The position numbers were made by a program, and so were the translations under genes. The notes beneath the pieces are model-generated. The model was not told the DNA's origin, made no database searches, and saw only the letters and a program-made list of their open reading frames with translations. A DNA stretch of 40,496 nucleotides, from positions 1 through 40,496 of the forward strand of contig JBGGMJ010000037.1 of NCBI GenBank assembly GCA_041288095.1, in the 5' to 3' direction. This DNA comes from Myxococcota bacterium. Lineage in GTDB: Bacteria; Myxococcota; XYA12-FULL-58-9; JALHOP01. Below, piece after piece: positions 6,359 through 37,461 of the stretch; the first letter of the stretch is position 1, and every line of letters starts with the position of its first letter.

Positions 6359-6387
6359 ATTATCGTTGCCAGGCCGAGTCCGATGCG
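6359..6387 (-). promoter_or_regulatory. Sigma-28-like promoter motif copy
   Basis: Minus strand CGCATC-N15-ACGATAAT, about 40 bp upstream of ATG 6317. Confidence 0.55.
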
Positions 6388-6402
6388 CATGATGAACCTG
6401 AC

Positions 6403-7452
6403 ATGCTGGCACGTGGTTTCCCCAGTGTTGGTAGGGCCTTAGCGGTCATCGCAGTGCTCACGAGCAGCGCTTGTTTCTGGGCGGCGCCGGGTCACCGGGG
6501 CCCAACGAGCCAACACTTCGACGGCCGCGAGTTCTCGAACCTCGGCCGGCGTGACGTGCATGGCTTCGCCAAGGCGATGTGGCTGTTCGCGTTCACCCAT
6601 CGCGACGCGTGGGGTCACCGCGACATCCAACCCTCGGTCCCCCCACGGCGCGTCGGCCAAGGCGAGCTGCGCATCACCTTCGTGAACCACGCCACCATGC
6701 TCATGCAGTTCGACGGCCTCAACGTGGTCACTGACCCTGTCTACTCGGACCTCGTCGGCCCCGTCTCCTTCGCGGGCGTCCGCCGGCTGCACGACCCTGG
6801 AGTCGCTTTAGCGGACTTGCCGCCGATCGACGCGGTGCTCGTGAGCCACAACCACTACGATCACATGGACATGCCCACCCTCCGTACGCTTTCGCATAAC
6901 CACGCGCCGCGTATCTTCGCCGGGCTCGGTAGCAAACACCTGCTCGACGAACAGGGCGTGCTCGGGGGCGAGGATCTCGATTGGTGGGAGACGAGCGAGC
7001 TCGCGCCGGGCATTCGCGTCACCGCCGTGCCGGTACGCCACTGGTCCCGGCGCGGCGTCGGCGACACCGACAACACGTTGTGGTGCGGCTTCGTCATCGA
7101 GACCTCGCGCGGCCCGGTGTACTTCGCCGGTGACACTGGCTTCGGCGAGCACTTCCACATGGCCTACGAGCGCTTCGGGCCGATGCGCGCGGCGATGCTG
7201 CCTATCGGCTCCTACAAGCCCCAGAGCTACATGCATATCTCGCACATGAGCCCGGACGCGGCGCTCGAGGCCCACCTGCAGCTCGCCTCGAGCCTCAGCA
7301 TCGCGATGCATTTTGGCAGCTTCCAGCTCGCCTTCGACGATCAGGGCGAAGCCGAAGCGCGTTTGCTCGCCGAGGCCGAGCGACGCGGTATCCCTGGCTT
7401 CGTCGTGCTGGCTCCCGGCGAAACCCGGGTCATAGGGGCCGTGGACCGCTAG
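6403..7452 (+). CDS. MBL-fold metallo-hydrolase, NAPE-PLD/RomA-like, probable lipoprotein
   Basis: ITFVNHAT, TDPVYS, SHNHYDHMD (HxHxDH), HWSRR, YFAGDTGF, LPIGSY and MHFGSF motifs. N-terminal hydrophobic stretch ends in LTSSAC. Confidence 0.92.
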   Translation: MLARGFPSVGRALAVIAVLTSSACFWAAPGHRGPTSQHFDGREFSNLGRRDVHGFAKAMWLFAFTHRDAWGHRDIQPSVPPRRVGQGELRITFVNHATMLMQFDGLNVVTDPVYSDLVGPVSFAGVRRLHDPGVALADLPPIDAVLVSHNHYDHMDMPTLRTLSHNHAPRIFAGLGSKHLLDEQGVLGGEDLDWWETSELAPGIRVTAVPVRHWSRRGVGDTDNTLWCGFVIETSRGPVYFAGDTGFGEHFHMAYERFGPMRAAMLPIGSYKPQSYMHISHMSPDAALEAHLQLASSLSIAMHFGSFQLAFDDQGEAEARLLAEAERRGIPGFVVLAPGETRVIGAVDR

Positions 7453-10307
7453 AGGCGCGCGCCACGCTCGCCGCGCGGACGAATTCCGCCGTTGGCGCGG
7501 GCGAAGTCCGCACGCCAATCATCGCCCTGCTGACCGCGAATCGAGGTCACCTGATAGCCGCCCGAGCCCACGGTGTAGCGCGCGTTGCTGGGGGCGAAGA
7601 GCAGGCCGCTATTGCGGTCGCGATAGAGGTAGCCGACGTAGCGCAGACGGCCGCTGGCGTTCTCGGAGTAGTGGTAGCGAACGCGGCCGGACTGGTCGAC
7701 GTCGCGACCGACGACCGTGAACCAGTGATCGGTGATGCCGTCGCGGTTGACGTCGGTGCCACCGTTGCGGGCGACGCCGAGAATCATGCGGTGGTTATTG
7801 GCAAGGCCCCAGTTGAGGTAGTTGTTGAGCGAGCGGAAGTCCTCGGGGTTACCACCGATGCGGCCGCCGGGCTCTTCGCTCTGCGCCGTCCAGTGACCTT
7901 CCCACGGATGCGCGCGACGGCCGGAGCTGGGTGTCGCACCCGGCGCCGCGCCGCGGAAGGCGACGTCATCGAGCGCACGGAGCAAGCAGTCGTCGCCGGC
8001 GCGCATGTAGTGGAGGCGGCCCGGCGTGAGGTTGATCGTCGCCATCTCGTCGGGGCGCGCGAGATCCGCGTCGCGGATGTCGCCGTAGGCGCGCGGGGTG
8101 TGCGTGTTCGGGCGCATGAGGCGCGCCTCGCGCATGAAGTCCATGACCTGGCCTGCCGTCGATCGCTCGTTGCCGCGTGTCGTCCTGTGGCCCAACGAGA
8201 GGGTGCCGGGGTGCGGGTCGAGCGCGCCGTATTCGCTCGGCAGTGCGGCGAGGCGGCGATAGAGCTCGTTGGCGGCGACACGACCTTGGCGGCGCGTCGG
8301 GTCGGCGCTCATCCATTGGGCGAAGCCGTCGACATCGAAGCGATTGTCGGAGATGCGACGCAGGTGGTCGCGCACCGTCTCGCCCGGGATGGGATTCGGG
8401 ATGACACCCGGAACCAGATCGCGTCGCGGCAAACGGCGGTCGAGGTCGGCCGCGGTGAGATGGAAGTTGCTGTTGGCGACGTCTTCGGCGAGGCGCTCGG
8501 GCGTGCGGATGTCGTGGCGCTGGGTGTAGCGGTCGAGGATCTCGACCACGCGGCCGACGCGCGTTTGGTTGAACTGGCCCTCATAGAGAGTGAGCGCCCG
8601 ACTGCGGTCGCCACCCTGAATGCCTTGGAGGGTGGCGTAGAGGCGGCTCATCTCCGAGTTCGGACCGCCGATGGTGTTGTTCGCCTCGGGCGGGCGGGCC
8701 AGGCCTTGGATGGTGGCCCAGGGGAGACCGGCTTGCGCGAGCGCTTCGCGATCCTGCGGCGTGATGGCGCCGATGTTGATGCGCCCGAACTGCATGTAAT
8801 CGCGGAACGCGTCACGGTCGACGGTCGCGCGCTCCGAAAGGCGCTGCTCGTTCTCGCTGAGAATGTTCCCCGTGTAGTTTGGGTCGGGGAGCGGCGGATC
8901 GAATGAGCTGCGCTGCGGCTGATCGGGGTCCGCCGGCAGGCTCGAGCGGAAGACCGCGTTCAAGCCGGCGACGATGCGGCCCGAGTCGGTAGGACGGTCG
9001 GCGCCGCCCGGGACGTTGAACGGGAGGTCGTCGGACGGGGTGCGCGTCGCGTGGTGCGAGACGAACGAATCGCGGCTGCCGTTTTCGTCCGGCCGGTCCG
9101 CGGCCCGGAAGAGGGCGCGGAGCTGCGGCACCGTGAGCTGAGCCGACCCGCCCGCGAGCCGCTCGCGCAGTTGCGGCAAGATGCCTGACTGATCGAGCGC
9201 GCGGTAAGCGTCGGGATTGGTGCGCTCGAGGTTGGCCAGCGCCGCGGCGTCGAAGGTGCCGTTGCGGAAGCCGCCGACGAAGTCGCGCTCCTTGACGGTG
9301 ATCGCGGTGCTCACGGTGGTGTTGGCGAGGACCTGCTGCAAAGCCTCGCCGGAGGGGGTGAGCGTCGCTTCGCTGCCGGGCCGGCCAGCGGGCGGATTCG
9401 CGACCATGGCGATGGAGCCGGCGCGGCCGTTGGCGTCGAAGCGGTCGATCCAGGAGAAGACATCGCCGGCGCGGCTCGCGGGAACCACCCCGTCGCGGCC
9501 CGCGAGACGGCGGAGCTCGCCCATGCGCTCGTCTGCTATAGCGGTGCGAAGGGTGGTGCGCTGCTCTTCGGAGAGAGCGGCGACGCCTTGACGCTGGAAG
9601 TTACGCCGGGTGTCGGCATCGAGGTTGAGCGCGCCCATGACGGTGCGCGAAACGTGGCGGTGAGCCCCGGCGCCTTTGCGCTCGAGATAGGAATAGCCGG
9701 TATCCGAAGCGAGGGTGCGCAGGCGCGCGTTGTCGACGAGCGTCGAGGTCTGCAGCTGGCCGCCCTCGACCGTCGAGCGGAACGTCGCCGCGTCCATGCT
9801 GCGTGCCGCCGCGGGGTTGTCGACGCGGGGCGCCTGTGTGACGGGCGCGGCCGCGGTGGGCCAGGAGATCGGAACGGTGCTTGGCTGAAAGCGCGTGGCA
9901 TCGGCCAAGGCGCGGAAGTGAGCTTGCTGGACGAGCGACGGGCGGTCGAAACCCGAAAAAGCGTGGTCGAAGCGGTTCGGAGCTCGGGTCACTGCCGACA
10001 TGTCGAGGTGCGGTGCGGTGAAGGCACCGTCGAGCGTCATCGAGCCCGGGCTCATCATCCCCGGCGTGATGCCGAAGCGGGCAAGGACGCTCGGGTCGCC
10101 GGTCACCCCAGGAAGCGTCGAGCGGGGGCGGTCTCCCTTGGGAGCGACGGTGTCGGTATTGGCGATGGCCGGCTGCTGCTCGCGACGGCCAGTCTGCCTG
10201 CCGGTGCACGTATTCGAAGCGGCGTCCTTATCGCCTTCTTCGACATCCGTGGTGCCGTTGGGGCGCCGCGTCGCGATGCTGCAGGTTGCTGGCCCGGTGC
10301 CGGTCAT
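7449..10307 (-). CDS. Large hypothetical protein with low-complexity N-terminus, helical repeats and a C-terminal papain-like Cys-His-Glu domain
   Basis: 952-aa ORF with GGAGG upstream. Paralogue of 3936..6317. Candidate triad in DCLLRA, DHWFTVVG and SENA. Confidence 0.75.
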   Translation of the reverse strand: MTGTGPATCSIATRRPNGTTDVEEGDKDAASNTCTGRQTGRREQQPAIANTDTVAPKGDRPRSTLPGVTGDPSVLARFGITPGMMSPGSMTLDGAFTAPHLDMSAVTRAPNRFDHAFSGFDRPSLVQQAHFRALADATRFQPSTVPISWPTAAAPVTQAPRVDNPAAARSMDAATFRSTVEGGQLQTSTLVDNARLRTLASDTGYSYLERKGAGAHRHVSRTVMGALNLDADTRRNFQRQGVAALSEEQRTTLRTAIADERMGELRRLAGRDGVVPASRAGDVFSWIDRFDANGRAGSIAMVANPPAGRPGSEATLTPSGEALQQVLANTTVSTAITVKERDFVGGFRNGTFDAAALANLERTNPDAYRALDQSGILPQLRERLAGGSAQLTVPQLRALFRAADRPDENGSRDSFVSHHATRTPSDDLPFNVPGGADRPTDSGRIVAGLNAVFRSSLPADPDQPQRSSFDPPLPDPNYTGNILSENEQRLSERATVDRDAFRDYMQFGRINIGAITPQDREALAQAGLPWATIQGLARPPEANNTIGGPNSEMSRLYATLQGIQGGDRSRALTLYEGQFNQTRVGRVVEILDRYTQRHDIRTPERLAEDVANSNFHLTAADLDRRLPRRDLVPGVIPNPIPGETVRDHLRRISDNRFDVDGFAQWMSADPTRRQGRVAANELYRRLAALPSEYGALDPHPGTLSLGHRTTRGNERSTAGQVMDFMREARLMRPNTHTPRAYGDIRDADLARPDEMATINLTPGRLHYMRAGDDCLLRALDDVAFRGAAPGATPSSGRRAHPWEGHWTAQSEEPGGRIGGNPEDFRSLNNYLNWGLANNHRMILGVARNGGTDVNRDGITDHWFTVVGRDVDQSGRVRYHYSENASGRLRYVGYLYRDRNSGLLFAPSNARYTVGSGGYQVTSIRGQQGDDWRADFARANGGIRPRGERGARL

Positions 10308-10404
10308 GAACTACTCTCGGCCTCCGTCAACGCACAAGTTATTGAAATCGCGTAGCTTTGAAACCCTTCTGCAGGGCAAACCGTGCAGAATCCCCAGTAT
10401 CTAG

Positions 10405-10434
10405 ATTATCGGTGTGTGCCTGATGGGAGTTGCG
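10405..10434 (-). promoter_or_regulatory. Sigma-28-like promoter motif copy
   Basis: Minus strand CGCAAC-N16-CCGATAAT, about 100 bp upstream of ATG 10307. Confidence 0.7.
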
Positions 10435-11529: not shown

Positions 11530-11542
11530 AGAGGCGCTACGC

Positions 11543-11965
11543 TTAGTCGAAGATCTCTTCGAGACCGCGGCCCACGTCACCGGCCACATTGCCGGCGGCG
11601 GCCAGCGCGATGGCGATAGGGCCCGCGTTCTGGCGGAACAGGCCCTCGATGCGCTCGTAGCCACGCACGAAGTTCTCGGCGCGATCACGACGGGAGCGCG
11701 CGACTTCGCGGTCGGCGATGGCCCTGGCGATGTCCAGCGGCCCATTAGCGGCGTCGAGATTGCGCTCGGCGCGATAGAGGCCGCGCTCGGTGCCGGCGAG
11801 ATGCTGCTTGGCTCGCTCGAGCGAGTTACGAACGATCACGAGCTCCAAGGGGCTGATACCGCCCCGCAAGGCTTCGTCGAGGATATCGGCGCTTTCGCGC
11901 GAGTCGACGACGTTGCCACTGCGCATGGCTTCGCGAACGCGGGTATCGAGAGTAATGCGGTCCAT
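11543..11965 (-). CDS. Hypothetical helical protein (140 aa)
   Basis: ORF with GAGGGG upstream that fills the gap between the terminator and the motif copy. No family recognised. Confidence 0.7.
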   Translation of the reverse strand: MDRITLDTRVREAMRSGNVVDSRESADILDEALRGGISPLELVIVRNSLERAKQHLAGTERGLYRAERNLDAANGPLDIARAIADREVARSRRDRAENFVRGYERIEGLFRQNAGPIAIALAAAGNVAGDVGRGLEEIFD

Positions 11966-12032: not shown

Positions 12033-12062
12033 TTTGTCGGATCCCGGAGCCCAAGGGTTGCG
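12033..12062 (-). promoter_or_regulatory. Sigma-28-like promoter motif copy
   Basis: Minus strand CGCAAC-N16-CCGACAAA, about 70 bp upstream of ATG 11965. Confidence 0.6.
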
Positions 12063-18429: not shown

Positions 18430-21400
18430 GTGACCCCCTCACGTGTGGTGCTGGCGTTCTCGTGTCTATCCCTCGGTGTCCTGCTCACCCGCTGCGGCGG
18501 TGACGACTGTACAGAAAACTGCGATGGGCCTCTCGTCGGCTTGACGGTCATCGCCCCCGACCAGATGGCGGAAGCGAGTTGCGCCCCCGCGCAGATCGTC
18601 CAGCTCGACGGGGGCACGACCGTGCGTCCGACGCGCGAGACCAGGCTCGCGCTCTCCGGAGACGCCTCGTGGTACTCGGACTCCGGCTGTAGTGTGGCGG
18701 CAACGAGCGCCACGCAGGACGCGGGTGCTCGGAGCGCCATCGCCTATCTGTCGGGCAGGAGCGCTGGACGCCTGCGAGCACAGGCTCGCGGCCGTGACGT
18801 CGGCGGCGAGGCCATCGTCGAAACGCGGGCCATCGGCGGCGCTTACACGAACATCCGAGTCGGCGGAGCCCGCTAAGCTGACGTGGGCGTATGCGTACCC
18901 ATCTGGTTCGCGGCGGCCGATAGCGCCGGCGCACCCGCGAGCGTGGGCGGCGGCGTCACCGTGTTGCTCGCGGCTCCCGGCACCAGCTTCTTCGAGACCG
19001 AAGGGTGCACCTCGGCGCGCAACACCTTCATCCTCACGGCGGGCCACGAGAGCGCCATCGCTTACGCCCGTTTTGGCGTACCCGGCGACGTGACCGTGAC
19101 CGCGAGCGTCGGCGGCACTTCGCAAGGCAGCGCTCAGGTCGACGTCGCGGGCGACCCGCAGTACCGCGTCTTGATCACTCCGGCGGCCGATACCGCGCTG
19201 GTCCAGGCGGGCGAGTGCAAGCCCTTCGCCGTTGCGATTGTCGATCAGCTCGGCGCGCCAATCTCGGTGAACGCCCTCGATGTCGCCGTGCGCGGCAACG
19301 ACGCGTCTGTTTTCGCGGACGCCGCCTGCGCGACGCCGCCGATCACCACGGCCAGGGTTTCGGGCACGACGCCGACGACCGTCTACGTGCGCGCGAGCAA
19401 GGTCGGTAGCGCGAGCTTCACCGCGAGCCTTTCCGAGCTGGTCTCGCGCACCATCCAGCTGCAAGTCAGCGCCGCGGCGGCTTCGGCTCTGCGTCTCGGC
19501 GGTCCGCCGCGCTTGTCGCAGAACGGCTGCTACCCCTTCGTGGTCGAGCGCACCGATGCGTTCGGTAACCTCGTGACCGGTGGCGCCGTGGCCACGACGT
19601 TGAGCTCGACGCTCGGCATGTTCACGGACAGCGCCTGCACCGCCGCTACCACCGCGGTCAACATCGCGTCAGGCGAGTCGGTTGGTCACTTCTTCGTAAG
19701 TGGCGCGAGCCTGGGCACCGGCGTCGCTATCGGCGCCACCGCTACCGGCCTCAGCGCCGCCAACAAGACCGTCGACGTCATCGCGGTGGCGACCGCGTTC
19801 CGGCTGGAGATTCGCAACACCGCGGCCGCCGGCGAATGCGTGCCCGCCAGGTTGTACAGCGTCAACGGCACCGGTGCGGTGAGCGACGTGCTCGTCGCCG
19901 AAACGCCGACCATCTCGCCGACACCTGGGCAGCTCGTGCGTTACCGAGACATCAACTGCAGCATCATTCAGAGCACCGCTACCATTCCCGCGCTCGGCAG
20001 CCAGGTCGACTTCTACGTGCGAGCGACCACCGCGGATAGCTACTCGATCGTGACCACCGGTGGGACGCTGACCGCGGCGCCGGCGCGCACCATCGATGTC
20101 GGTCCTGGTCCGCTAGCGCAGACTGACGTCTACGGCCCCGATCGCGTCAACTTCCGCACCTGCACCCCGATCTTCGCCGACTTCTACGACCAGTACGGCA
20201 ACCCGGTAACCTTGTCGAACGGCAGGTCCCTCGATGCCGGCACCCAAGACTTCGGTGACATCTTCGACAACGCGGCGTGCGCCGGCAACCCGGTGGACCA
20301 GATCTACGTGCCGAGCGGCTCGTCCTCGACCATCGTCTACTATCGCGGAGAGCACCTCGGCGACGACAGCGTCGGCGTCGGCGCCAGTGACGTCTATCCG
20401 GGCAGCGTGAGCTTCGAGGTGTTGCTCTTCATGGGCGATACCCGGATTCCACTCTCGGATCTCCCCATCGCCAAGGAGGTCGCGATGCGCGCCGACGGCA
20501 GCGTCCTCTACGCGCAGACGACGACCGGCATGATCTACCGGTCGACCGACAACGGCGCCACCTGGCTGGCGCAGTGCACGACGAACGCCATCGTTCCGCT
20601 CGACTACGTCGGCAATCTTTTCGTCTCGACCGCGGGCGACGCCACGGCTTACGTCACCGACCAGTATACGAACTACGCCCGCATCGACCAGCTCGATGGC
20701 GGCGCCTGCCCGAGCATTCGCCAGCCCTTCACCCAGTACATCTACGGCTACTGGCAGAGCAGCGCCATCACCGTCGATCCGCTGGGCCAGCTTTGGGCGT
20801 GGAACGGCAACCAGCTCTACTACTCGGGCAACCAGGGTACCGACTGGACCTTCCAATACACGAACCCGGCGGTGAACACCCAGTACACCGCGCACATGTC
20901 GCACCACCCGACCGACACCAACATCAAGCTCGCGGACTTCTACTATGCAAGCTCCGGCACGGGCCTCTATCAGTCCTTGAACGGCGGCACGTCGTTCACG
21001 GCGACCAGCGCCGTCGGCTTTGGCGAGCCCACGTACCTTGCGCGCTTCGATCCGGCGCACACGGGCTACGCTTACAAGCTTGGCCGTCAGAGCGTCGACA
21101 ACGGCGCTACCTGGACCGCCAACACCGGTTACAACGGCCTCTCGGTTTCGTGGGCGCTCGACTCGAGCGGCGCGGCCTATCGCTTTACCGGCAACGGCAC
21201 GACGACCGTGGTCGAGCGCGCTCCTGATGCGCGCACGCCGGTTTGGGCAGCCCTTGCGGACGGCACCTTGAGCGAGCCCTTCAACACCTACGTGTCGCAG
21301 ATGGCGGTCTCGACCGATGGCAGCACCATCGCGGTGCAGTCGGGTGGACACCTGTACTTGACCACCGACGCCGGCGCGAACTTCGAAGCGATCACCACGC

Positions 21401-22332
21401 CCGGCACCTTGGCGGAACGCAGTCCCGGCCTCGTCATCACCTCGCCGACCGACGCCTATGCGGCGAGCGGTGGAGACCCGGTGCTCATCTACGCCACCAG
21501 CGACGGCGGCGAGAACTGGCAACGGATGGGCTTGTTCGCCGGCTACGGCACCCAGCCGTACTTCCACGTCAACCCGAACTTCCCGCAAACCGTTTACATG
21601 CGTGGCGAGGCGTTTGGCGGCACCGACGACGGCAATGTCTTCGCCACTCAGGATGGGTTCAACACCATCAACTACGATCCCGCCGGTTCGGTCGAGACCT
21701 GGTGGGGCACCGGCGCGGTCAGCCTCCACGACCCACTCGTGTTCTACACGCTAGGCAACGGCATTTGCCGGCGCACCTTGGACGGCGGCTTGAGCTACGA
21801 AGATCATCCGTGCGACGTGCCCCAGTACTGGTATGCGGCCGCGGTTGGTTGGGTGAGCCCCGCCTCGCAGGACATCGTGTACATCGCGGGGTACGACTGG
21901 AACATCGGTGGCCCGTATCTGTGGAGCGTGAATTGGGTGACCGGCGAGCGTACGCTGCTCCCGAGTGTCGGCTACGGCACCGCGGGCCTCGAGATGTACG
22001 ATGGCCCGTCGGGAGTCGTCATGCGCACCGCCGACGCCTATGGTCGCTTGCAGAGCTCGACTGACGGCGGCGCGAGCTTCACACCGCTCACCAACGGTCC
22101 GTTCGACAACTATTGCTACTACGGCCGCAACGTCACGTCGCTGAAGGGCCGACCCGAGGTCGTGGCGAGCGGCTGCCACCTCTACAACACCGTTTCGATC
22201 AGCCTCGACGGAGGAGACAACTGGACGACTCGGACCATTTCGAACTGCCCGATCCGCCAGATCTCGCTCCTCGATGGCGTCATGGTGGTGTCGTGCACCA
22301 ACCGAGCGCCCGAGGTTATCGAGTACACCGAC

Positions 22333-22341
<9 letters not shown>
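18430..22341 (+). pseudogene. Large surface (lipo)protein with six Cys-paired Ig-like repeats and Asp-box beta-propeller(s), interrupted by an in-frame TAA at 18874-18876
   Basis: ORFs 18430..18876 and 18883..22341 share one frame, and the stop falls within the start of repeat 2. About ten Asp-box-like motifs (e.g. STDNGATW, TSDGGENW, STDGGASF, SLDGGDNW). Could be a true nonsense allele or a sequencing error. Confidence 0.7.
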
Positions 22342-26221: not shown

Positions 26222-26250
26222 GTTATCCCGCGTAGGCCGCGAATGTTGCG
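26222..26250 (-). promoter_or_regulatory. Sigma-28-like promoter motif copy
   Basis: Minus strand CGCAAC-N15-GGGATAAC, 30 bp upstream of ATG 26191. Confidence 0.55.
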
Positions 26251-26400: not shown

Positions 26401-27432
26401 TTAGGCGGTCGAGCCGCCGCAGCTCGAGCCGGCCCCGGCGGTGCAGCCGAAGCAGTGGCGATGGGTGACGATGGTGCGGGCCTCGAGGGCGGCCTTGTCG
26501 AAGTCCTTGATGTGGCGCGGGGCCTTGGCGTCGACTTCCATGTCGAGCATCTGGTTGAAATCGCAGTCGTAGAGCTTGCCGTCCCAGCTTACCGAGATGG
26601 TGTTGCGGCACATGACATTGGCGGCGGCGGCCGGGTTGTAACCGTTCACCAGCCGCTCCATGTAGCCTTCGAGATTGCTCGTCTCCATGAGCCATTCGAG
26701 ATAGCGGCTGATCGGCATGTTGGTGAGGCAGAAGAGCGCGTCGAACTTGATGCCGTGCAGCCGGTCGAGCTCGCGCTTCCATTCCTTCTCGAGCGAGGCC
26801 TGAGCCGCGGGCAGGAAGGCGCCTACCGGATTGGTGACCAGCACCAAGCGCAGTCCGTTGCCGGTTCCGTAGCCGACGGCATTGAGCTTCTTCAGCGCGC
26901 TGATGGATTTCTCGAAGACACCTTCGCCGCGCTGCGCGTCGGTGTTGGTGGCGCGGAAGTGGGGCAGGGAGCAGACCACTTCGACTTGGTTGTCGGCGAA
27001 GAACTTCGGGAGATGGGCGTGCGACGGCGTCTCGAGGATCGTGAGGTTGCAGCGATCCATGACGTGACGGCCGAGCTTTCTCACCTCGGTCACGAGCCAC
27101 TCGAAATGCGGATTGAGCTCGGGCGCGCCGCCGGTGATGTCGACGGTGGGGATGTCCGTTTTAGCGAGCGCCTGGAGACAGAGCTCCATGGTGGCACGCG
27201 ACATCTGCTCGCGCCGGTCAGGGCCGGCATCGACGTGGCAATGCTTGCACGTCTGATTGCAGAGCTTGCCGACGTTCAGCTGGAAGATCTCGATGCGCGT
27301 CGGGCGGAACGGCATCAGCGACGATTCCTTCAACGCCTCGTGGAACTCACGCGCGACCGGCAATCCCTCGAGCGCCTTGAGTTGCTCCGAGGTGCTGGCG
27401 AGCGGTGCTCTGCGCGACAGCAACGACGACAT
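26401..27432 (-). CDS. arsS: Radical SAM/Cys-rich protein, ArsS (arsenosugar biosynthesis) family with DUF3641 C-terminus
   Basis: CNQTCKHC (CxxxCxxC), DITGGAPELNP, YDCDFNQML and HCFGCTAGAGSSCGG. The ATG at 27432 overlaps the upstream TAA. Confidence 0.88.
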   Translation of the reverse strand: MSSLLSRRAPLASTSEQLKALEGLPVAREFHEALKESSLMPFRPTRIEIFQLNVGKLCNQTCKHCHVDAGPDRREQMSRATMELCLQALAKTDIPTVDITGGAPELNPHFEWLVTEVRKLGRHVMDRCNLTILETPSHAHLPKFFADNQVEVVCSLPHFRATNTDAQRGEGVFEKSISALKKLNAVGYGTGNGLRLVLVTNPVGAFLPAAQASLEKEWKRELDRLHGIKFDALFCLTNMPISRYLEWLMETSNLEGYMERLVNGYNPAAAANVMCRNTISVSWDGKLYDCDFNQMLDMEVDAKAPRHIKDFDKAALEARTIVTHRHCFGCTAGAGSSCGGSTA

Positions 27433-27767
27433 TACATCCCGACCTTTTTGACGTGGGCGCGCATCTGCGTGCCGTGAACGAGCGACGAGCCGCCCCGGAT
27501 GGCGGCGGCGACGTGAATGGCTTCGGTCATCTGCTCGATGTCCGAGCCCTTGGAGAGACAGTCGTTCGAGTAGGCGTCGATGCAGTAGGGGCACTGCACG
27601 GTATGCGCGACCGCCAAGGCGATGAGCGACTTCTCGCGCGCGGTGAGAGCTCCGTCGGCGAAGACGGCGCCGTACCAATCGAAGAACTTCTTGGCCAGCT
27701 CCGGCGCGGCTTTGCCGATTTCCGGGAAGCGGCCGAGGTCCGATGATTCGTAGTAATGCTCGTGCAT
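27432..27767 (-). CDS. CMD/AhpD-family peroxidase-like protein associated with ArsS-type radical SAM genes
   Basis: GALTAREKSLIALAVAHTVQCPYCIDAY (CxxC) and AAIRGGSSLVHG. Translationally coupled to arsS. Confidence 0.9.
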   Translation of the reverse strand: MHEHYYESSDLGRFPEIGKAAPELAKKFFDWYGAVFADGALTAREKSLIALAVAHTVQCPYCIDAYSNDCLSKGSDIEQMTEAIHVAAAIRGGSSLVHGTQMRAHVKKVGM

Positions 27768-30631: not shown

Positions 30632-31272
30632 ACGAAACGAGCGGGATACAACGCCTCCCGAGTGAAGAGACCCTCCGGGTTCTCTACGTCACCCTGGTGG
30701 TTTGCGGTCTAGCAGGCGGCGGCAAGCTGATGGCCATCGGGTCGCTTGCCGCGTCCGCGACCGTCGTCGCCTACCAGCTTTCGTTCGCGTTGGTGGACTA
30801 CGTCAACGAGATGCACGGGGCCCCGCTGGCGCGTGGCTTCGTGCGTCATGGCTTCATTGCCCTGGCGGTCGCGCTGGCGTGCTTCGTGATGATCGTGGTG
30901 GTGCCGCCTGCTTCGGGCTTTGCCGATGACGCTGCCTACGCGCGCGTCTTCGGCGTCACCCCGCGCATCGCCGCCGCCGGCCTGGTGGCATTCATCGTCG
31001 CGCAGCTCGAAAACGTGTGGATTTACGACATCATCCGCAGGCGTAAGCCGCGGCTCGGGGTCGCCGTGCGCGCGGCCTTGGCGACCGCGGTGGCGCAGTT
31101 CGTCGACACGGTGATCTTCATCGGTATCGCTTTCGCGGGCACGGTCGCGGACTTACCGCGGCTCTTGTTCGGGCAATACGCCGTGAAGCTGGTGCTCGTA
31201 GCGGTCAGCGCGCCCCTCCTTGCGATGGTGGTGCGCTGGCGCCGCGACCGAGTCGGGTCGCAACCGCGATAG
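30628..31272 (+). CDS. Queuosine precursor transporter (YhhQ/VUT family); start codon uncertain
   Basis: DYVNEMHG, PRIAAAGLVAFIVAQLENVWIY, AQFVDTVIFIGIAF and GQYAVK. The family-like first TM begins upstream of the first canonical start (GTG 30697). Confidence 0.82.
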   Translation: MNETSGIQRLPSEETLRVLYVTLVVCGLAGGGKLMAIGSLAASATVVAYQLSFALVDYVNEMHGAPLARGFVRHGFIALAVALACFVMIVVVPPASGFADDAAYARVFGVTPRIAAAGLVAFIVAQLENVWIYDIIRRRKPRLGVAVRAALATAVAQFVDTVIFIGIAFAGTVADLPRLLFGQYAVKLVLVAVSAPLLAMVVRWRRDRVGSQPR

Positions 31273-31294
31273 CAGCCAACAGGGTATGTCGCCC

Positions 31295-32023
31295 ATGAGC
31301 GCGCCGGTCAGTCGCAGCACGGCTCTGCCCGCACCGCACTCGCCTGCATCCCTCGAGCGTTTCGGCGACCCTGGGTCCCCGCGCGGTGACGAGGCGCGCA
31401 GGAAGGCGCAAGACGGGCTCGTTCAAGACAGCCTCGGGGGGCATCGGCCCCCATCGCTCCATGGCTCGAGCCCCATGCTCCGCGGCATCGAGCCAGGCGG
31501 CGACCTGGGTGGTGTCGGCTTGCGCGGCGGCGCGAGAGGACCTCAAAACTTCAATCGCGATCGCGACTCCCTGCCCCTGATGCGCGACATCGACCGGCGA
31601 GGCGCCGGCGACCGGCGCAAGATCGATGACGCCGGCCATCGCGCACTCGAGGGTCTCACCGCGGCCGACCCTCACAACTTGCGACTGAACCATGACGCCA
31701 ATAGCGGCGCTCTCAGCATCGATCGGCAAGCGGTCGACGACCGCGGCAACGCGACTTGGCGCCGCGTCTGGGACGGCGAGGTTCCGCGTGCGAACCACGC
31801 CGATCCGTCAGCGGCATGGTCGGTGATGACGCGGGACGCGGGCAACCGGCTCGCCGAGGACTACCGCGAAAGGCCCTACAACAACCGGGCTCCGCTCCAC
31901 GACAACGCCTTCCCCGATGCCGCGCGCGGCGCCATCCAGCCGACGGAACCCACCCGAGAACATCCGGGGCGGGTGCGCAAACCGTCTGATTGGGGTCTGC
32001 CGAGGGACCAACGGCGCACCTAA
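31295..32023 (+). CDS. Hypothetical protein with low-complexity S/P/G/R-rich N-terminus
   Basis: ORF fills the gap up to the gyrA end with GC3-rich codons. Start is ATG 31286 or 31295. Confidence 0.6.
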   Translation: MSAPVSRSTALPAPHSPASLERFGDPGSPRGDEARRKAQDGLVQDSLGGHRPPSLHGSSPMLRGIEPGGDLGGVGLRGGARGPQNFNRDRDSLPLMRDIDRRGAGDRRKIDDAGHRALEGLTAADPHNLRLNHDANSGALSIDRQAVDDRGNATWRRVWDGEVPRANHADPSAAWSVMTRDAGNRLAEDYRERPYNNRAPLHDNAFPDAARGAIQPTEPTREHPGRVRKPSDWGLPRDQRRT

Positions 32024-32051: not shown

Positions 32052-34757
<2,706 letters not shown>

Positions 34758-34832
34758 GAGAGGCGGCGCTTATAGCCCGAAGAAATGGCGGTGCGGAAGG
34801 CCTCGAGGGCCTCCGAAAATACCTGGATTTTC

Positions 34833-34862
34833 GGCAACGCCACGCTGGCACACCCCGATAAG
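34833..34862 (+). promoter_or_regulatory. Sigma-28-like promoter motif copy
   Basis: GGCAAC-N16-CCGATAAG, 15 bp upstream of ATG 34878. Confidence 0.68.
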
Positions 34863-34877
34863 AGCGGAGGTTGGTGG

Positions 34878-35564
34878 ATGGGAGATGGGGTGATGGAAAA
34901 AGTCAGCAGCCGTATGGACACGATCGTCAACATGCCGGTCGGTCCGACGCCGATCGTCGTTCGGGCTTTGGCCGGCAGCAGGCTCACAGAGGCCATCGAC
35001 AAGATGGTCGCCAAGCACCCCCGGCCGGTGCTCCAGGAGCTGCGGCGAGCCACGCGGACCGACCATGTGCTCCAGCGTTTGGGAAACGCCGGCTTTTACG
35101 CCGCCAGCTTCGCCGGCTTGAGCATTCTCGTCGAGCTCGGGGGCCGCATTCTCATCGGCGGCGGCGCACCGGACCCCGCATTCGTGGGCGTGATCGCTGC
35201 CTTGGGCGGTGCTTTCGGCGTCTCCTTGCCCATCGATCAGAGACCGCTAAAGCGGACGAAGGCGAACGAGGAGGCGCTCGGCAAGGCGGGCGCGGTGATC
35301 ACCGCCATGGCCTACAACGTCGAGCTGTCGCCGGAGGCCGCGAAGTCGTTCAAGGGCGTCGGAGGCTACAAGCTCGGCTCGCCGTCGGTGCTCAGCTTGG
35401 TTTTCGACAAGGCGGCGTTCAAAGACGAGCACGCCGAAGAGGTCCGCGCCGGCATCGAGAAACAACTCGACGAGCGCGGCATGACTGGGCTCGCTCCGGA
35501 CTTCGTGCGCTTCAAGGTCACGTTCTGGGAATTGCCGCCACGGCGGGCGGTGCGCGAAAACTAG
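34878..35564 (+). CDS. Hypothetical protein with a central two-helix hydrophobic hairpin
   Basis: ATG 34878 follows GGAGG (alternative start 34893). Hydrophobic segments AGFYAASFAGLSILVELGG and FVGVIAALGGAFGVSL. Confidence 0.7.
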   Translation: MGDGVMEKVSSRMDTIVNMPVGPTPIVVRALAGSRLTEAIDKMVAKHPRPVLQELRRATRTDHVLQRLGNAGFYAASFAGLSILVELGGRILIGGGAPDPAFVGVIAALGGAFGVSLPIDQRPLKRTKANEEALGKAGAVITAMAYNVELSPEAAKSFKGVGGYKLGSPSVLSLVFDKAAFKDEHAEEVRAGIEKQLDERGMTGLAPDFVRFKVTFWELPPRRAVREN

Positions 35565-35579
35565 GCTATCATCGATGGC

Positions 35580-36746
35580 ATGTTGGGACGCGCGCTCGCG
35601 CTCGGATTGGCCGTGGCACTCGTCGCCTGTGGCGGCGAGGAGGGGCCCACCGGCACCATCGAGGTCGACGGCATGGCTTACGGCATGACCGTGACCGTGT
35701 GGTCGGTTGATGGCCGGGAGCAAACAGTCGAGGCTGAGCCAGAGGGCGCCTTCGGCGTCTCGGGGGTCCGGCCCCCTTACGACATCCTCTTCGCCGGCAC
35801 GCAGCGGAAGTCGCTGATTCTCGGGAGCCGCGCCGCGTACCACGACGTGGCGCGTCCACCGCCGCCCAATCGTACCCTGCAAGACCTCTCGACGGTCTCT
35901 TTCGGGCTCACACCCCAGCCGCCCTCCGACGCGACGACGCTCTGGGTCGTCGAGTGCGGCGACGAAGTGCTCGGTTCGCACTCTGGTGACGGCGCGGTGG
36001 ACCTCGAGCGCGGGTTCTATCTCGACGCGCCGCGAAGCTGCGCCGCGAAGGTTCTCGTCTTGAATCCCGGAGCTGACGGTTATGGCGGACGAGGCAGCGC
36101 CCAGCTCCAGCTGCAACCGAGGAGCCACAGCGAAGTCGCCGTTGACGTCTCCACGGTCGTCACGAGTCGGCTGGTCACCTTCGACGTGATTGACCCGAAT
36201 CCCGACACCACGTTTGCCGCGGTCGGCATGGTTTGGCCCGCGGGCAGCCGAGGCTACGCCGCGCATGTGATCCGCGAAGGCGTGTTCGCTTCCACGACCG
36301 TTCCGGCACCGGAGAGCTCGGGGGTCGGGCTGTCGATGATCTTCGCGGCCGCGAGTGACGGCGACGCCTTGCAGGGCAGCGTTGCCTGGCGAGCGCTCGC
36401 CCTCGACGCCGGCCAAGCTCTGCGCGAAGTGACGCTACCGAGCGTCGACATCATCGTGGAGCCCGCGACCGGCGCCCAATTCGTGGGCACTTTTGCGCTC
36501 GAGCCTCGCGATGGCGGCATCTACGTCTTCGTGCTGGGTGACGTGACGGTCACCACGGCTTCCCCCGAGCTCACGCTCGCGGACCTGTCGCGGCACGGCA
36601 TCGTTCTCGGGAGCGGTGTGCGGACGTTCCGCGGCTACATCACCACCGCGGCGTCGGTGGACGCCGATCTCTCGCTGGACGGCATCGTTCGCCAGCGCGA
36701 TGCGGTGCGCATTCAGAGCCGCCCCAGCACCTTCGTCGTCGACTAG
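35580..36746 (+). CDS. Hypothetical beta-rich lipoprotein
   Basis: MLGRALALGLAVALVAC lipobox. No family recognised. Confidence 0.75.
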   Translation: MLGRALALGLAVALVACGGEEGPTGTIEVDGMAYGMTVTVWSVDGREQTVEAEPEGAFGVSGVRPPYDILFAGTQRKSLILGSRAAYHDVARPPPPNRTLQDLSTVSFGLTPQPPSDATTLWVVECGDEVLGSHSGDGAVDLERGFYLDAPRSCAAKVLVLNPGADGYGGRGSAQLQLQPRSHSEVAVDVSTVVTSRLVTFDVIDPNPDTTFAAVGMVWPAGSRGYAAHVIREGVFASTTVPAPESSGVGLSMIFAAASDGDALQGSVAWRALALDAGQALREVTLPSVDIIVEPATGAQFVGTFALEPRDGGIYVFVLGDVTVTTASPELTLADLSRHGIVLGSGVRTFRGYITTAASVDADLSLDGIVRQRDAVRIQSRPSTFVVD

Positions 36747-36756
36747 AGCGCGATCG

Positions 36757-37425
36757 CTAGCGGCCGAAGAGCCAAGCCAAGAGGCCCGTGCGGGGCGGGG
36801 CAGGGACAAGGGCTGTATTCGTCACCGCATACGTCGGCAGGCTCGAGCGAATCGCCCCCAACGCACCCTTCAAATACGCTGTGGTCTGGTTGGTGTAATA
36901 GTTGGTCTTGTTCGCGCCGTCTTGCGCTTGTTTGGCAAGGGCGGGATCGAGCTTCTCGAGCGGCACGACCAAGGCGCGCAGGGCGCCTCGTAGGTACTCG
37001 AGCTGGGCGTCACCGTTGTACCGTTCCGCCTCGGTAAGCGTCGCCGTGATGTTGGCGGCGAGCTCGTCGATCATGGCGCGTCGCGTCTGCTGGCCGTCGA
37101 TGGTTTGAACGACGATGCTCGTCGCCCGCGCGGTTTGAATGGCCGCGTGGAGGCCTGCGCTCATCGCGGAGGGCAGCGTACGGCTCAGGGCCTCGCTGGC
37201 GCCGTCGGTGGCGCGGAGCAGGGCTACGACGGCGTCGGGGTCCGGCCGGCGATCGGCGATGCCACGCAGCACGGCATTGGTGGCTCTGCTGACCGTTTGG
37301 ATCCACTGGTCGATCGGCGGCTCGGCCCCCTCGGAGACCACGGGGAGGTTGGCTGGAGCGCTCTCGACCGGCGTCACTGGCTTGGCGTATTGGGACGGAA
37401 CGGTGGCAATGGCTTGTCCGGTCAT
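36757..37425 (-). CDS. Hypothetical helical protein, possibly translated from a leaderless mRNA
   Basis: 222-aa ORF with a Pro/Thr/Ala-rich N-terminus and no obvious Shine-Dalgarno. The promoter-like motif ends 6 nt before the ATG. Confidence 0.7.
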   Translation of the reverse strand: MTGQAIATVPSQYAKPVTPVESAPANLPVVSEGAEPPIDQWIQTVSRATNAVLRGIADRRPDPDAVVALLRATDGASEALSRTLPSAMSAGLHAAIQTARATSIVVQTIDGQQTRRAMIDELAANITATLTEAERYNGDAQLEYLRGALRALVVPLEKLDPALAKQAQDGANKTNYYTNQTTAYLKGALGAIRSSLPTYAVTNTALVPAPPRTGLLAWLFGR

Positions 37426-37431
37426 GCCGAC

Positions 37432-37461
37432 AATATCGGTGGCCTAGGGCTCGAGGTTCGC
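37432..37461 (-). promoter_or_regulatory. Sigma-28-like promoter motif copy
   Basis: Minus strand GCGAAC-N16-CCGATATT-N6-ATG. Confidence 0.58.

What the first reader, a model, noticed from the sequence alone, without database searches (positions are those of the whole stretch)
6359..37461. Dispersed regulon: a shared (C/G)GCAAC-N15/16-CCGATAA motif precedes scattered signal-peptide-less genes, a candidate effector repertoire
Seen: copies oriented with the downstream gene at 6359-6387(-) CGCATC-N15-ACGATAAT, 10405-10434(-) CGCAAC-N16-CCGATAAT, 12033-12062(-) CGCAAC-N16-CCGACAAA, 26222-26250(-) CGCAAC-N15-GGGATAAC, 34833-34862(+) GGCAAC-N16-CCGATAAG and 37432-37461(-) GCGAAC-N16-CCGATATT, plus a weak copy at 31259-31288(+) CGCAAC-N16-AGGGTATG. 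Each lies 6-100 bp before a start codon. By eye I found none ahead of the housekeeping or Sec-exported genes. All targets lack a hydrophobic signal peptide and most begin with polar S/T/P/A-rich tails (MSQRSTANT, MTGTGPATCS, MTKVGDLRTQGARVSSS, MTGQAIATVPSQ, MSAPVSRST). Known: the FliA/WhiG (sigma-28) -10 element is GCCGATAA with a TAAA -35, and type III export substrates have unstructured N-termini. Inference: a divergent sigma-28-family factor with a GCAAC -35 co-expresses a genome-wide set of non-Sec secreted proteins (cysteine-protease-like enzymes, a peptidase, membrane-inserting proteins), possibly for predation or cell contact. The sigma factor and export machine are not in this window.
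Basis: partly seen in the sequence, partly recalled or inferred. Interest (0 to 1): 0.9.

Follow-up and report, generated by a model that had tools for sequence, protein, structure and literature searches.

The report
Promoter marking myxobacterial secretion-system cargo

Summary
Six of the seven sites are real; 31259 is not. They belong to about 340 promoters, consensus GCAAC-N15/16-CCGATA(A/C), in an uncultured Myxococcota genome (117 exact copies against 0-4 at other spacings). The likely reader is a FliA-like sigma factor with an altered -35 recognition helix, encoded in the needle-less T3SS* cluster. The motif heads that cluster's operons across the phylum, and M. xanthus has a sigma factor at the same place (MXAN_2437). 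Targets are depleted of signal peptides (25 of 317 against 554 of 2110), mostly orphan, have polar N-termini, and include normally exported peptidases, murein hydrolases, lipase and nucleases. Six of seven mappable M. xanthus counterparts rise on prey contact in published RNA-seq. A conserved neighbour (MXAN_2436-like) is modelled to bind the sigma factor, so it may be an exported anti-sigma. The regulon is not purely cargo: it also holds the T3SS* itself, a Flp pilin and some metabolic genes. Secretion is inferred, not shown. The scan noted this promoter class before, in this genome (e1-7734304) and in two other phyla. I found no paper on it.

The parts
6359..6387 (-). Weak promoter copy (GCATC-N15-ACGATAA), 43 nt before the 793-aa gene
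   Evidence: 11.4 bits; same site in G030, 17.4-bit site in G086, none found in G066; the GCATC variant has its own spacing peak genome-wide
3936..6317 (-). 793-aa orphan without signal peptide; C-terminal papain/C39-like domain (Cys579, His663); paralogue of the 952-aa protein
   Evidence: No Pfam family above cut-off; 27% identity over 754 columns to the 952-aa protein; residues located
10405..10434 (-). Strong promoter copy (GCAAC-N16-CCGATAA), 99 nt before the 952-aa gene
   Evidence: 24.6 bits; 25.3 and 25.1 bits before orthologues in G030 and G066 with changed spacers
7449..10307 (-). 952-aa orphan without signal peptide; long polar N-terminus; C-terminal papain/C39-like domain (Cys774, His861)
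   Evidence: No Pfam hit; only 2 homologues found; Atlas features 0.90-0.91 to Peptidase_C39/C39_2/C70 clusters, structure TM 0.58 to a C39_2 part
12033..12062 (-). Promoter copy (GCAAC-N16-CCGACAA), 69 nt before the 140-aa gene
   Evidence: 17.4 bits; 16.7 and 20.1 bits before orthologues in G030 and G086
11543..11965 (-). 140-aa orphan, no signal peptide, no clear membrane helix
   Evidence: orthologues at 89% and 43%
26222..26250 (-). Promoter copy (GCAAC-N15-GGGATAA), 32 nt before the M28 peptidase
   Evidence: 16.9 bits; kept in three congeners and before the orthologue in three distant 9-10 Mb genomes at 17.4, 17.8 and 22.8 bits
24887..26191 (-). M28 aminopeptidase, 434 aa, with a polar N-terminal tail where other family members have a lipoprotein signal peptide
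   Evidence: PF04389 E=3e-30; N-termini of 120 homologues
34833..34862 (+). Promoter copy (GCAAC-N16-CCGATAA), 32 nt before the 223-aa gene
   Evidence: exact match; 17.7 bits
34893..35564 (+). 223-aa orphan with a two-helix hydrophobic stretch (about residues 70-115), no signal peptide
   Evidence: no usable Atlas hit; no orthologue in the syntenic congener stretches fetched
37432..37461 (-). Promoter copy, 8 nt before the 222-aa gene (leaderless spacing)
   Evidence: 17.5 bits; 16.2 bits before the orthologue in G030
36757..37425 (-). 222-aa orphan, Pro/Ala/Thr-rich N-terminus, no signal peptide
   Evidence: 52% orthologue in G030
31259..31288 (+). Proposed weak copy: rejected. The gene behind it (31295-32023) is real but not shown to belong
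   Evidence: -0.3 bits; 44% orthologue in G030 without a site

Best explanation
The motif is the -35/-10 promoter of a FliA (sigma-28) paralogue encoded at the head of the needle-less type III secretion cluster (T3SS*) of Myxococcota, here at G000:C92:35188-36072. Its region 2 keeps the FliA-type residues, so the -10 box stays CCGATA. Its region 4.2 helix reads SKSW[TA]SR instead of SESRVSQ, which would explain the GCAAC -35 box. It transcribes its own operon, the T3SS* operons, a Flp pilin and some 300 scattered genes. A large part of these, probably most, are T3SS* cargo: they lack signal peptides and carry a polar, low-hydrophobicity N-terminal tail, as type III substrates do. They would be moved across the inner membrane and delivered to contacted prey, probably with the Tad/Kil pilus, to digest wall, membrane, protein and nucleic acid. 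The conserved gene just before the sigma (159 aa; MXAN_2436 position) probably binds the sigma factor and is itself exported, so that assembly of the machine at a prey contact switches the regulon on, as FlgM export does for flagella. SHOWN: motif, spacing, position, strand, conservation, co-occurrence with the sigma and T3SS*, target composition. INFERRED: promoter function (about 0.95); identity of the sigma (about 0.88); export of most targets (about 0.6); anti-sigma export switch (about 0.4).
For: (1) Promoter geometry: spacer 15/16 only; intergenic and same-strand; 39 of 337 start codons lie 8-12 nt behind the -10 box, as for leaderless mRNAs. (2) The genome holds SctR, S, T, Q, P, O, N, L, J and FliO/FliG-like genes on C92, SctV on C31 (above the TIGR01399 cut-off) and SctU on C41. 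Sites of 17.0, 17.3 and 19.3 bits precede the sigma operon, the sctJ operon and sctV. (3) In 39 loci of sigma relatives, sites of 16 bits or more peak at spacers 15/16 (32 and 30, against 3-11 elsewhere); a site of 14 bits or more precedes the first gene after the sigma in 23 of 34 loci that hold it. The same holds in a further 19 stretches from other families: 20 and 10 against 0-2. (4) In 80 genomes, the 44 with both this sigma and a close SctV have 1039 exact motifs against 121 wrong-spacer controls; the 30 with neither have 153 against 86. (5) S-K-S-W-x-S-R-x-H is invariant in 31 of 31 sigma sequences, against SESRVSQLH in solved FliA. (6) Signal-peptide-like N-termini: 25 of 317 targets (33 if every upstream start is allowed) against 554 of 2110 other operon leaders, and 8 of 94 against 14 of 49 among Pfam-less proteins. 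Replicates: 0 of 26 in six 8-13 Mb genomes and 4 of 30 in G088. (7) P+S+T+Q+A make up 42.8% against 34.2% of residues 2-31, but only 35.3% against 32.0% of the last 30; cross-validated AUC 0.735 against 0.593. (8) Pfam names 60 of 208 targets against 81 of 130 controls; 18 of the 60 are peptidases against 4 of 81. The targets also include SLT, M74 murein endopeptidase, lipase and two nucleases. Distant genomes add a PG-binding amidase and Peptidase_M91 ('Effector protein'). (9) The same catalytic domain occurs with either a signal peptide or a polar tail, among M28 homologues and in-genome paralogue pairs. (10) M. xanthus RNA-seq on S. meliloti (PMC9548883 supplements): MXAN_2434, 2438, 2458, 2754, 6365 and 0987 rise at 2 h (log2 0.67-2.11), among 277 up transcripts. 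Only 1 of 6 M28 and 1 of 4 M4 genes is on the 2-h list, in each case the one matched to a motif-bearing gene. The sigma gene MXAN_2437 is flat. (11) Complex model of the sigma with the 159-aa protein: score 0.84, best of 3 controls 0.00; the mark was reached by 116 of 157 solved complexes and 2 of 215 mismatched pairs; runs agree in at least 40% of contacts; partner pLDDT at least 61.
Against: No transcription start, binding or secretion was measured. The signal-peptide test is my own hydrophobicity rule and the genes are my own calls. The N-terminal signal is statistical only (AUC 0.735), with no position-specific consensus in G000. The D-x-F-E motif seen in the 9-13 Mb genomes is not enriched in G000 (8 of 281 against 48 of 1484). 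The regulon holds clearly cytoplasmic or membrane enzymes (PanB, branched-chain aminotransferase, UbiA, fatty-acid desaturase, TrmFO/GidA family, kinases), though several lie more than 150 nt from the site and may be mis-assigned. Peptidases are not significantly enriched when counted over all targets (18 of 208 against 4 of 130, p=0.07). Median N-terminal overhang against in-genome paralogues is only 2 residues. 9 of 44 genomes with sigma and SctV show fewer than 5 excess exact motifs, and G112 has 41 motifs with neither gene found (75% complete). 11 of 34 loci lack a 14-bit site before the post-sigma gene; no site of 12 bits or more precedes sctU or the Tad secretin in G000. In M. xanthus the TPR gene before sctV, MXAN_2436 and sctN are not up (sctN falls at 6 h). 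The M. xanthus matches rest on domain content, length and gene order; the motif was read in relatives, never in DK1622 DNA; hydrolases are enriched among prey-induced genes anyway. T3SS* has no secretin, so exit beyond the periplasm is unexplained (PMC3459982). One of three complex runs scored only 0.41, and binding does not distinguish an inhibitor from a cofactor.
Confidence: 0.62

Rival explanations
1. Same sigma factor and promoter, but a general predation or lifestyle regulon like the attack-phase FliA programme of Bdellovibrio. The T3SS* is only one client; most targets are cytoplasmic or leave by vesicles or lysis, and their polar tails are ordinary disorder of young orphan proteins.
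For: Metabolic, regulatory and some signal-peptide genes are in the set. The composition bias persists weakly along the whole protein. About 340 sites is many more than the effector sets I recall for known T3SSs. Bdellovibrio precedent: 92 of 140 attack-phase promoters (PMC3627812).
Against: Signal-peptide depletion holds among Pfam-less proteins too. The bias is strongest in the first 30 residues. Families normally exported through Sec (thermolysin with propeptide, subtilase, M28, S41, amidase) appear here without signal peptides. Multi-pass membrane proteins are nearly absent (1 of 317 against 4.3%).
Confidence: 0.25
2. The promoter is read by the second FliA-like factor (C127:21759-22571, next to a FlgM-like gene), alone or together with the T3SS* sigma.
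For: It scores as well against TIGR02479 (166 against 164 bits) and has a FlgM-like neighbour.
Against: Clear orthologues occur in only 4 of 80 genomes, whereas the motif heads T3SS* operons in many genomes without it. It has the canonical-type helix TDSRVCQ. Its flgM gene is preceded by TCAAG-N15-GCCGTT, not GCAAC.
Confidence: 0.04
3. The regulon is as described, but the 159-aa neighbour is a permanent cofactor that completes the shortened middle domain of the sigma factor, or a structural T3SS* part, not an exported anti-sigma.
For: The modelled interface lies on sigma residues 154-233 and 285-293, not mainly on region 4 as I recall for FlgM. No FlgM profile or fold match was found.
Against: Its first 40 residues are predicted disordered and begin with a conserved M-x-R/K-I-G-G-G start, like other motif-bearing proteins. 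In M. xanthus target genes rise while the sigma transcript is flat, which needs post-transcriptional control.
Confidence: 0.3
4. The motif is an operator for a DNA-binding regulator, or a repeat, not a promoter.
For: No transcription start was mapped.
Against: It is asymmetric and two-part, with a 15/16 spacer and free spacer sequence, and strand-locked. It has a peak of start codons 8-12 nt downstream. Its -10 half is identical to the mapped FliA -10 of Bdellovibrio.
Confidence: 0.03

Closest known systems
Needle-less T3SS* of Myxococcus xanthus, MXAN_2434-2464 (PMC10433427, PMC12075869, PMC12428579, PMC10849154: passages read; 'long' Myxo locus of PMC3459982: passages read)
   Same: Same core genes and order (hypothetical, TPR, hypothetical, sigma, hypothetical, sctJ ... 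sctL, N, O, P, Q, R, S, T); no secretin in the cluster; MXAN_2437 is a region 2 + region 4 sigma factor at the same position; a Tad secretin and a Flp pilin are also present.
   Different: The papers say its effectors are unknown and, in the passages read, mention no sigma factor or promoter for it. They restrict Kil plus T3SS* to Cystobacterineae, whereas this sigma was found in 180 of 301 Myxococcota genomes. In G000 the cluster is split over three contigs and the regulon is far larger (117 exact sites against about 2-20 in most 9-13 Mb genomes).
FliA attack-phase regulon of Bdellovibrio bacteriovorus (Karunker et al. 2013, PMC3627812: passages read)
   Same: A sigma-28-type factor as a broad regulator in a predator; identical -10 (CCGATA) and similar spacing; proteases and many unknown genes among targets.
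   Different: -35 is TTAAG there and GCAAC here. There it is the flagellar FliA; here it is a paralogue with an altered helix inside a non-flagellar secretion cluster, and no flagellin was found.
FliA-FlgM export switch of enteric flagella (recalled; solved FliA chains seen)
   Same: A sigma-28 fold, and a small partner with a disordered N-terminus and helical C-terminus that is modelled to bind it; the proposed logic is the same.
   Different: The partner has no detectable FlgM similarity and is modelled on another surface; output would be lytic cargo, not flagellin.
Dedicated T3SS regulons with a promoter box used to find effectors, such as HrpL and the hrp box of Pseudomonas syringae (recalled, no call)
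   Same: A dedicated alternative sigma factor co-transcribes the machine and scattered effector genes.
   Different: HrpL is an ECF sigma with another box and serves a needle-bearing system aimed at plant cells; this one is sigma-28-like, needle-less and aimed, by inference, at bacteria.

Membership tests
FliA/WhiG (sigma-28) subfamily | Regions 2 and 4 without region 1; nearest solved structures are FliA/WhiG | tested here: met
   Pfam r2 + r4; all 6 PDB hits at E<=1e-20 are FliA or close sigma factors
FliA/WhiG (sigma-28) subfamily | Score above the TIGR02479 cut-off | tested here: not met
   163.7 bits against 189.6; still the best family
FliA/WhiG (sigma-28) subfamily | -10 box CCGATA(A) | tested here: met
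   Matrix; Bdellovibrio consensus
FliA/WhiG (sigma-28) subfamily | -35 box TAAA/TAAG and region 4.2 helix SESRVSQ | tested here: not met
   -35 is GCAAC; TAAA/TAAG show no spacing peak; helix is SKSW[TA]SR in 31 of 31
FliA/WhiG (sigma-28) subfamily | Drives late flagellar genes | tested here: inconclusive
   No flagellin and only one FHIPEP gene in G000, which is 90% complete; two congeners have a second, FlhA-like hit
FliA/WhiG (sigma-28) subfamily | Held by a FlgM anti-sigma | tested here: inconclusive
   Neighbour modelled to bind, but no FlgM profile or fold match
Myxococcota needle-less T3SS* (long locus) | Export gate SctRSTUV, ATPase SctN with SctL and SctO, SctQ, SctJ | tested here: met
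Myxococcota needle-less T3SS* (long locus) | No secretin in the cluster | tested here: met
   The three secretin genes lie in other contexts: type IV pilus-like, type II secretion-like, Tad-like
Myxococcota needle-less T3SS* (long locus) | No needle or translocon | tested here: inconclusive
   No such Pfam hit among 32 proteins scanned, most from the cluster; several are unnamed and no dedicated SctF search was run
Myxococcota needle-less T3SS* (long locus) | Needed for prey lysis | not testable with these tools
   Shown for M. xanthus; the lifestyle of this uncultured organism is unknown
Type III secretion substrates (the target genes) | No Sec/lipoprotein signal peptide | tested here: met
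   284-292 of 317 targets by my hydrophobicity rule; all six window targets
Type III secretion substrates (the target genes) | Polar, poorly ordered N-terminal 20-30 residues | tested here: met
   As a group only: AUC 0.735; no disorder predictor was available
Type III secretion substrates (the target genes) | Export depends on the T3SS ATPase; the N-terminus is sufficient | not testable with these tools
   Needs bench work
Papain-like C39/C70 peptidases (the 793- and 952-aa proteins) | Cys at the start of a helix and His at the start of a strand, in a papain-like fold | tested here: inconclusive
   Cys and His are present in both; Atlas lead; no Pfam hit; my own single-sequence model was unusable (pLDDT 35.5)

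The most novel reading that the evidence does not exclude
Myxobacteria run prey lysis through an export-coupled switch. The needle-less T3SS* assembles at a prey contact and exports a new kind of anti-sigma (MXAN_2436 family). This frees a dedicated sigma-28 paralogue (MXAN_2437 family) that transcribes the machine and its whole cargo from GCAAC-N15/16-CCGATA promoters. The motif then lists the unknown T3SS* effectors in any myxobacterial genome, and this uncultured genus carries some 250-300 of them, mostly proteins of no known family, aimed at other bacteria.
Probability: 0.35. Interest if true: 0.93.

Novelty: new variant of a known kind. Interest (0 to 1): 0.82.

Why it matters
Reviews from 2023-2025 state that the effectors of the M. 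xanthus T3SS* are unknown or hypothetical. The promoter gives a short, testable candidate list in a genetically tractable organism (MXAN_6365, 2754, 0987, 2458) and names the likely regulator pair (MXAN_2437, MXAN_2436). The Myxo system is the earliest-branching non-flagellar T3SS, so a retained but re-tuned FliA-type switch would show how flagellar gene control was carried over as the flagellum became a secretion device. The orphan targets may be a source of new antibacterial enzymes.

Tried and rejected
(1) The 31259 site: rejected. (2) The second FliA-like gene as reader: made unlikely. (3) The reversed-pattern control understates chance in some genomes: family f10 has 9-18 motifs without the sigma, but also 3-14 at wrong spacers, so I used the spacer control. 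(4) A D-x-F-E export motif, obvious in M28 homologues and in 8 of 26 targets of the large genomes, is not enriched in G000. The start pattern M-x(0-3)-[RKTSN]-[IV]-[DNSGE] is enriched (42 of 281 against 75 of 1484) but was chosen after looking, so I give it little weight. (5) N-terminal overhang against in-genome paralogues: no general shift. (6) The 159-aa protein: no Pfam, PDB-sequence or fold match (best Z 6.2 for a helical bundle). (7) Single-sequence fold of the 793-aa C-terminal domain failed, so no fold search was run on it. (8) Atlas search of the 223-aa protein: no usable hit. (9) Mapping two further motif genes to M. xanthus by position failed; three Pfam accessions were absent from that table; three other genes (L114-L116) were not tried. 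(10) Sequencing runs: no RNA holder listed. (11) Thiery et al. 2022 is not held; I know it only through reviews, and its supplements may list T3SS* genes or substrates. (12) Paper searches returned no paper on this motif or on MXAN_2437; subscription papers are not covered. (13) Rows dropped before alignment A2: 6 of 36 candidates (L012, L039, L042 wrong frame; L025, L026 unrelated ORFs; L098 a duplicate of L029).
Full report
OBSERVATION. Two match GCAAC-N15..17-CCGATA exactly, against 0.03 expected in shuffles. In the whole genome (G000, 5.85 Mb, 212 contigs, 90% complete) the exact pattern occurs 81 times with a 15-nt spacer, 36 times with 16, and 0-4 times at each other spacer from 10 to 23. 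I called 5147 genes with a self-trained model and built a two-block matrix. It finds 389 sites of 16 bits or more, against 47 at control spacers 19/20, so about 340 are real. 176 of 186 sites of 20 bits or more are intergenic, though only 7.4% of the genome is. 337 sites have a same-strand start within 250 nt (336 genes). Of 287 sites of 18 bits or more, 165 face only a same-strand gene and 12 only an opposite-strand gene. 39 of 337 starts lie 8-12 nt behind the -10 box, the spacing of leaderless mRNAs. In the window, five sites score 16.9-24.6 bits and one 11.4; the 31259 copy scores -0.3 and is rejected; the other 27 of 33 genes examined have nothing above 9.3 bits. Congeners keep both boxes while the spacer changes, before orthologues of five of the six genes; no orthologue of the sixth was in the stretches fetched.

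ORGANISM AND MACHINE. Close relatives of the sigma factor lie in records mostly titled Myxococcota or Deltaproteobacteria, some Bdellovibrionales. G000 has no flagellin and one FHIPEP gene, which passes the SctV cut-off and not the FlhA one. Contig C92 carries sctT, S, R, fliO-like, sctQ, P, O, N, L, a FliG-like gene and sctJ; sctU is on C41. Its three secretin genes lie in other contexts. This is the needle-less T3SS* of myxobacteria, which M. xanthus needs to lyse prey and whose effectors are unknown (PMC10433427; PMC12075869; passages read). Motif sites precede the sigma operon (17.0 bits), the sctJ operon (17.3) and sctV (19.3), and a Flp pilin (20.6). None of 12 bits or more precedes sctU or the Tad secretin.

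WHICH SIGMA. Two FliA-like genes score 164-166 bits, below the 189.6 cut-off. The C92 one ends the operon 185-aa protein, TPR protein, 159-aa protein, sigma. In relatives this operon sits directly before sctJ. In 39 loci of relatives, sites of 16 bits or more peak at spacers 15 and 16 (32, 30; others 3-11). They fall mainly before the 185-aa gene and before the gene after the sigma (23 of 34 loci at 14 bits or more; 11 lack it). Nineteen more stretches from other families give 20 and 10 against 0-2, and closed 9-10 Mb genomes have GCAAC-N15-xCGATAA at the head of the cluster. The sigma was found in 180 of 301 genomes of the phylum (the tallies include G000 and the unpublished G195, on which no other claim rests). 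In an 80-genome subset that I chose to span high and low counts, 44 have both the sigma and an SctV of 60% identity or more: 1039 exact motifs against 121 at spacers 18/19. The 30 with neither have 153 against 86, of which 41 come from G112 (75% complete). Nine of the 44 show fewer than five excess motifs. Kin are not independent, so I give no p-value. The C127 sigma has clear orthologues in only 4 of 80 genomes, the canonical-type helix TDSRVCQ, a FlgM-like neighbour and a TCAAG-type site before that neighbour. The C92 sigma keeps the FliA region 2 stretch (YYRIRGAIYDGLR) but has S-K-S-W-x-S-R-x-H invariant in 31 of 31 sequences, where FliA has SESRVSQLH. That a changed helix explains the changed -35 is inference. 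MXAN_2437, inside MXAN_2434-2464, is annotated as a region 2 + region 4 sigma factor of 837 bp (PMC9548883 supplement).

WHAT THE TARGETS ARE. By my hydrophobicity rule 25 of 317 complete targets have a signal-peptide-like start (33 if any start behind the motif is allowed), against 554 of 2110 other operon-leading genes. Among Pfam-less proteins it is 8 of 94 against 14 of 49. One target in 317 has three or more membrane helices, against 4.3%. The depletion repeats in other lineages: 0 of 26 genes behind 30 sites in six 8-13 Mb genomes (4 sites had no gene), and 4 of 30 in G088 (30 of its 53 sites). Among proteins without signal peptides, P+S+T+Q+A make up 42.8% against 34.2% of residues 2-31 and 35.3% against 32.0% of the last 30; a cross-validated classifier reaches AUC 0.735 on the N-terminus and 0.593 on the C-terminus. 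There is no position-specific consensus. I scanned 208 of the 317 targets: 60 have a Pfam family at 1e-6, against 81 of 130 neighbouring control leaders. Eighteen of the 60 are peptidases (M4 twice, S8 twice, S9 twice, M14, M20, M24, M28, M64, M74, S41, C2, C26, trypsin, GGT, beta-lactamase fold), against 4 of 81; over all proteins this is 18 of 208 against 4 of 130 (p=0.07). SLT domains, a lipase, two nucleases, two serpins and a Fic protein also occur. So do ordinary enzymes such as PanB, a branched-chain aminotransferase, UbiA, a desaturase and a GidA-family protein; several of these are over 150 nt from the site. Thermolysins with propeptide, subtilases and S41 are normally Sec-exported (recalled); here they lack signal peptides. 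The window's M28 peptidase shows the swap directly. Of 120 homologues 15 score as signal-peptide forms (the rule misses a few); most myxobacterial ones, including that of M. xanthus DK1622, have a polar tail instead. Its orthologues in 3 of 3 distant genomes where it was found (5 searched) carry the motif (17.4, 17.8, 22.8 bits). Motif genes of the large genomes include a PG-binding amidase, Peptidase_M91 with RTX repeats, and an annexin. The two large window proteins are paralogues (27%) with only two homologues found for the 952-aa one; both have a Cys and a His in a C-terminal domain that the Atlas places near C39/C70 peptidases, which is a lead, not a result.

INDEPENDENT EXPRESSION DATA. 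In M. xanthus preying on S. meliloti, 277 transcripts rise at 2 h (PMC9548883; passages and supplement rows read). I matched first-behind-motif genes of relatives to M. xanthus genes by domain content, length and order. Up at 2 h: MXAN_2434 (log2 1.16), 2438 (0.67), 2458 (2.03), 2754 (1.98), 6365 (2.11) and 0987 (1.16). Not up: the TPR gene before sctV. That is 6 of 7. Only 1 of 6 M28 genes and 1 of 4 M4 genes is on the 2-h sheet, each time the matched one; both amidase genes are. MXAN_2436 and 2437 are not on the up list and sctN falls at 6 h. Limits: the motif was not read in DK1622 DNA; for MXAN_2438 the site in most of the large genomes is a weaker one inside the sigma gene; annotated genes were easier to map; other mappings failed or were not tried (see Tried and rejected).

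A CANDIDATE SWITCH. The gene before the sigma encodes a family with a conserved M-x-R/K-I-G-G-G start, about 40 low-confidence residues and a helical C-terminal domain (31 rows, 6 of 36 candidates dropped). It has no Pfam, PDB or fold match. A complex model with the sigma scores 0.84, best of 3 controls 0.00; the mark was reached by 116 of 157 solved complexes and 2 of 215 mismatched pairs; runs agree in at least 40% of contacts, partner pLDDT is at least 61, and one of three runs scored 0.41. The model supports binding; it does not show it. The interface is on sigma residues 154-233 and 285-293, so it does not look like a copy of the FliA-FlgM complex as I recall it. An exported anti-sigma would explain why targets rise while the sigma transcript is flat; a fixed cofactor is the alternative.

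MECHANISM AND ODDS. Promoter, 0.95. Read by the T3SS*-encoded sigma, 0.88. Most targets are T3SS* cargo, 0.6. Export-coupled anti-sigma, 0.4. How cargo crosses the outer membrane is open; the Kil/Tad pilus has been proposed for this (PMC12075869), and a Flp pilin is in the regulon.

COMPARISON AND NOVELTY. It works like the Bdellovibrio attack-phase FliA regulon (TTAAG-N16-CCGATA, 92 of 140 promoters; PMC3627812) and like dedicated T3SS regulons. It fails two defining FliA features (-35 box, recognition helix) and the family cut-off, so I file it as a FliA-like paralogue, not as FliA. Nine paper searches found no description of the motif or of MXAN_2437 ('mxan2437': 0 papers); subscription papers, including Thiery et al. 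2022 and its supplements, were out of reach. The scan itself noted this promoter class in another piece of this genome (e1-7734304) and similar T3SS-linked sigma-28 promoters in two other phyla (e1-7801342, e1-4158169); these notes are unchecked and not independent support.

VERDICT. New variant of a known kind; interest 0.82.

Noticed in passing
G000:C149:28751-30190 and C22:68985-70379: Two ClpX-like AAA+ paralogues (42-48% identical to the ordinary ClpX-like gene on C77) carry the motif and have unrelated N-terminal regions in place of the usual one.
   Followed up: no
G000:C127:21759-22853 (L008:9760-10851): A second FliA-like sigma with a degenerate region 2 profile and a FlgM-like gene, in a genome where no flagellin or flhA was found; two congeners have an FlhA-like gene, so this may be a flagellar remnant or the assembly may lack the flagellar genes.
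   Followed up: partly
G000:C23:7871-8122 (L123:7874-8122): A lone Flp/Tad pilin gene behind a 20.6-bit site, away from the Tad secretin on C29; a possible link between T3SS* and Kil regulation.
   Followed up: partly
handles G048, G054, G018, G128 (family f16, 1.3-2.0 Mb): Very small Myxococcota genomes keep the T3SS* sigma, and in the three tested a close SctV (63-69%); a 25.8-bit site precedes the post-sigma gene in G054. They could be host-dependent predators or symbionts.
   Followed up: partly
handles G083, G088, G116 (family f12): Four to six SctV/FlhA-family genes per genome, suggesting several type III-like systems side by side.
   Followed up: no
G000:C134:41728-43230 and C79:9168-11339: Two serpin-domain proteins without signal peptides in the regulon, one fused to DUF6929/DUF6910; they may restrain co-exported proteases.
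   Followed up: no
L192:3-1409 (-); L171, L174, L195: Motif-bearing genes of the large genomes include a bacterial annexin and Peptidase_M91 proteins with RTX repeats that also have polar N-terminal tails.
   Followed up: no
G000:C92:36795-37943 (L009:11799-12944): The TPR protein before the sigma weakly matches SycD/LcrH and SctY profiles; the 185-aa gene before it may then be an SctX-like export substrate (order recalled from Yersinia).
   Followed up: no
window 18430-22341 (+): A lipoprotein-like 148-aa gene and an 1152-aa protein with Ig-like repeats and a BNR/sortilin propeller; probably a surface protein pair, without the motif.
   Followed up: no
window 26401-27767 (-): A carboxymuconolactone-decarboxylase-family gene and a radical SAM/DUF3641 gene in one operon.
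   Followed up: no
G000:C103:20964/21007, C199:3895/3940, C210:41730/41731: Back-to-back or overlapping pairs of the promoter driving divergent genes.
   Followed up: no
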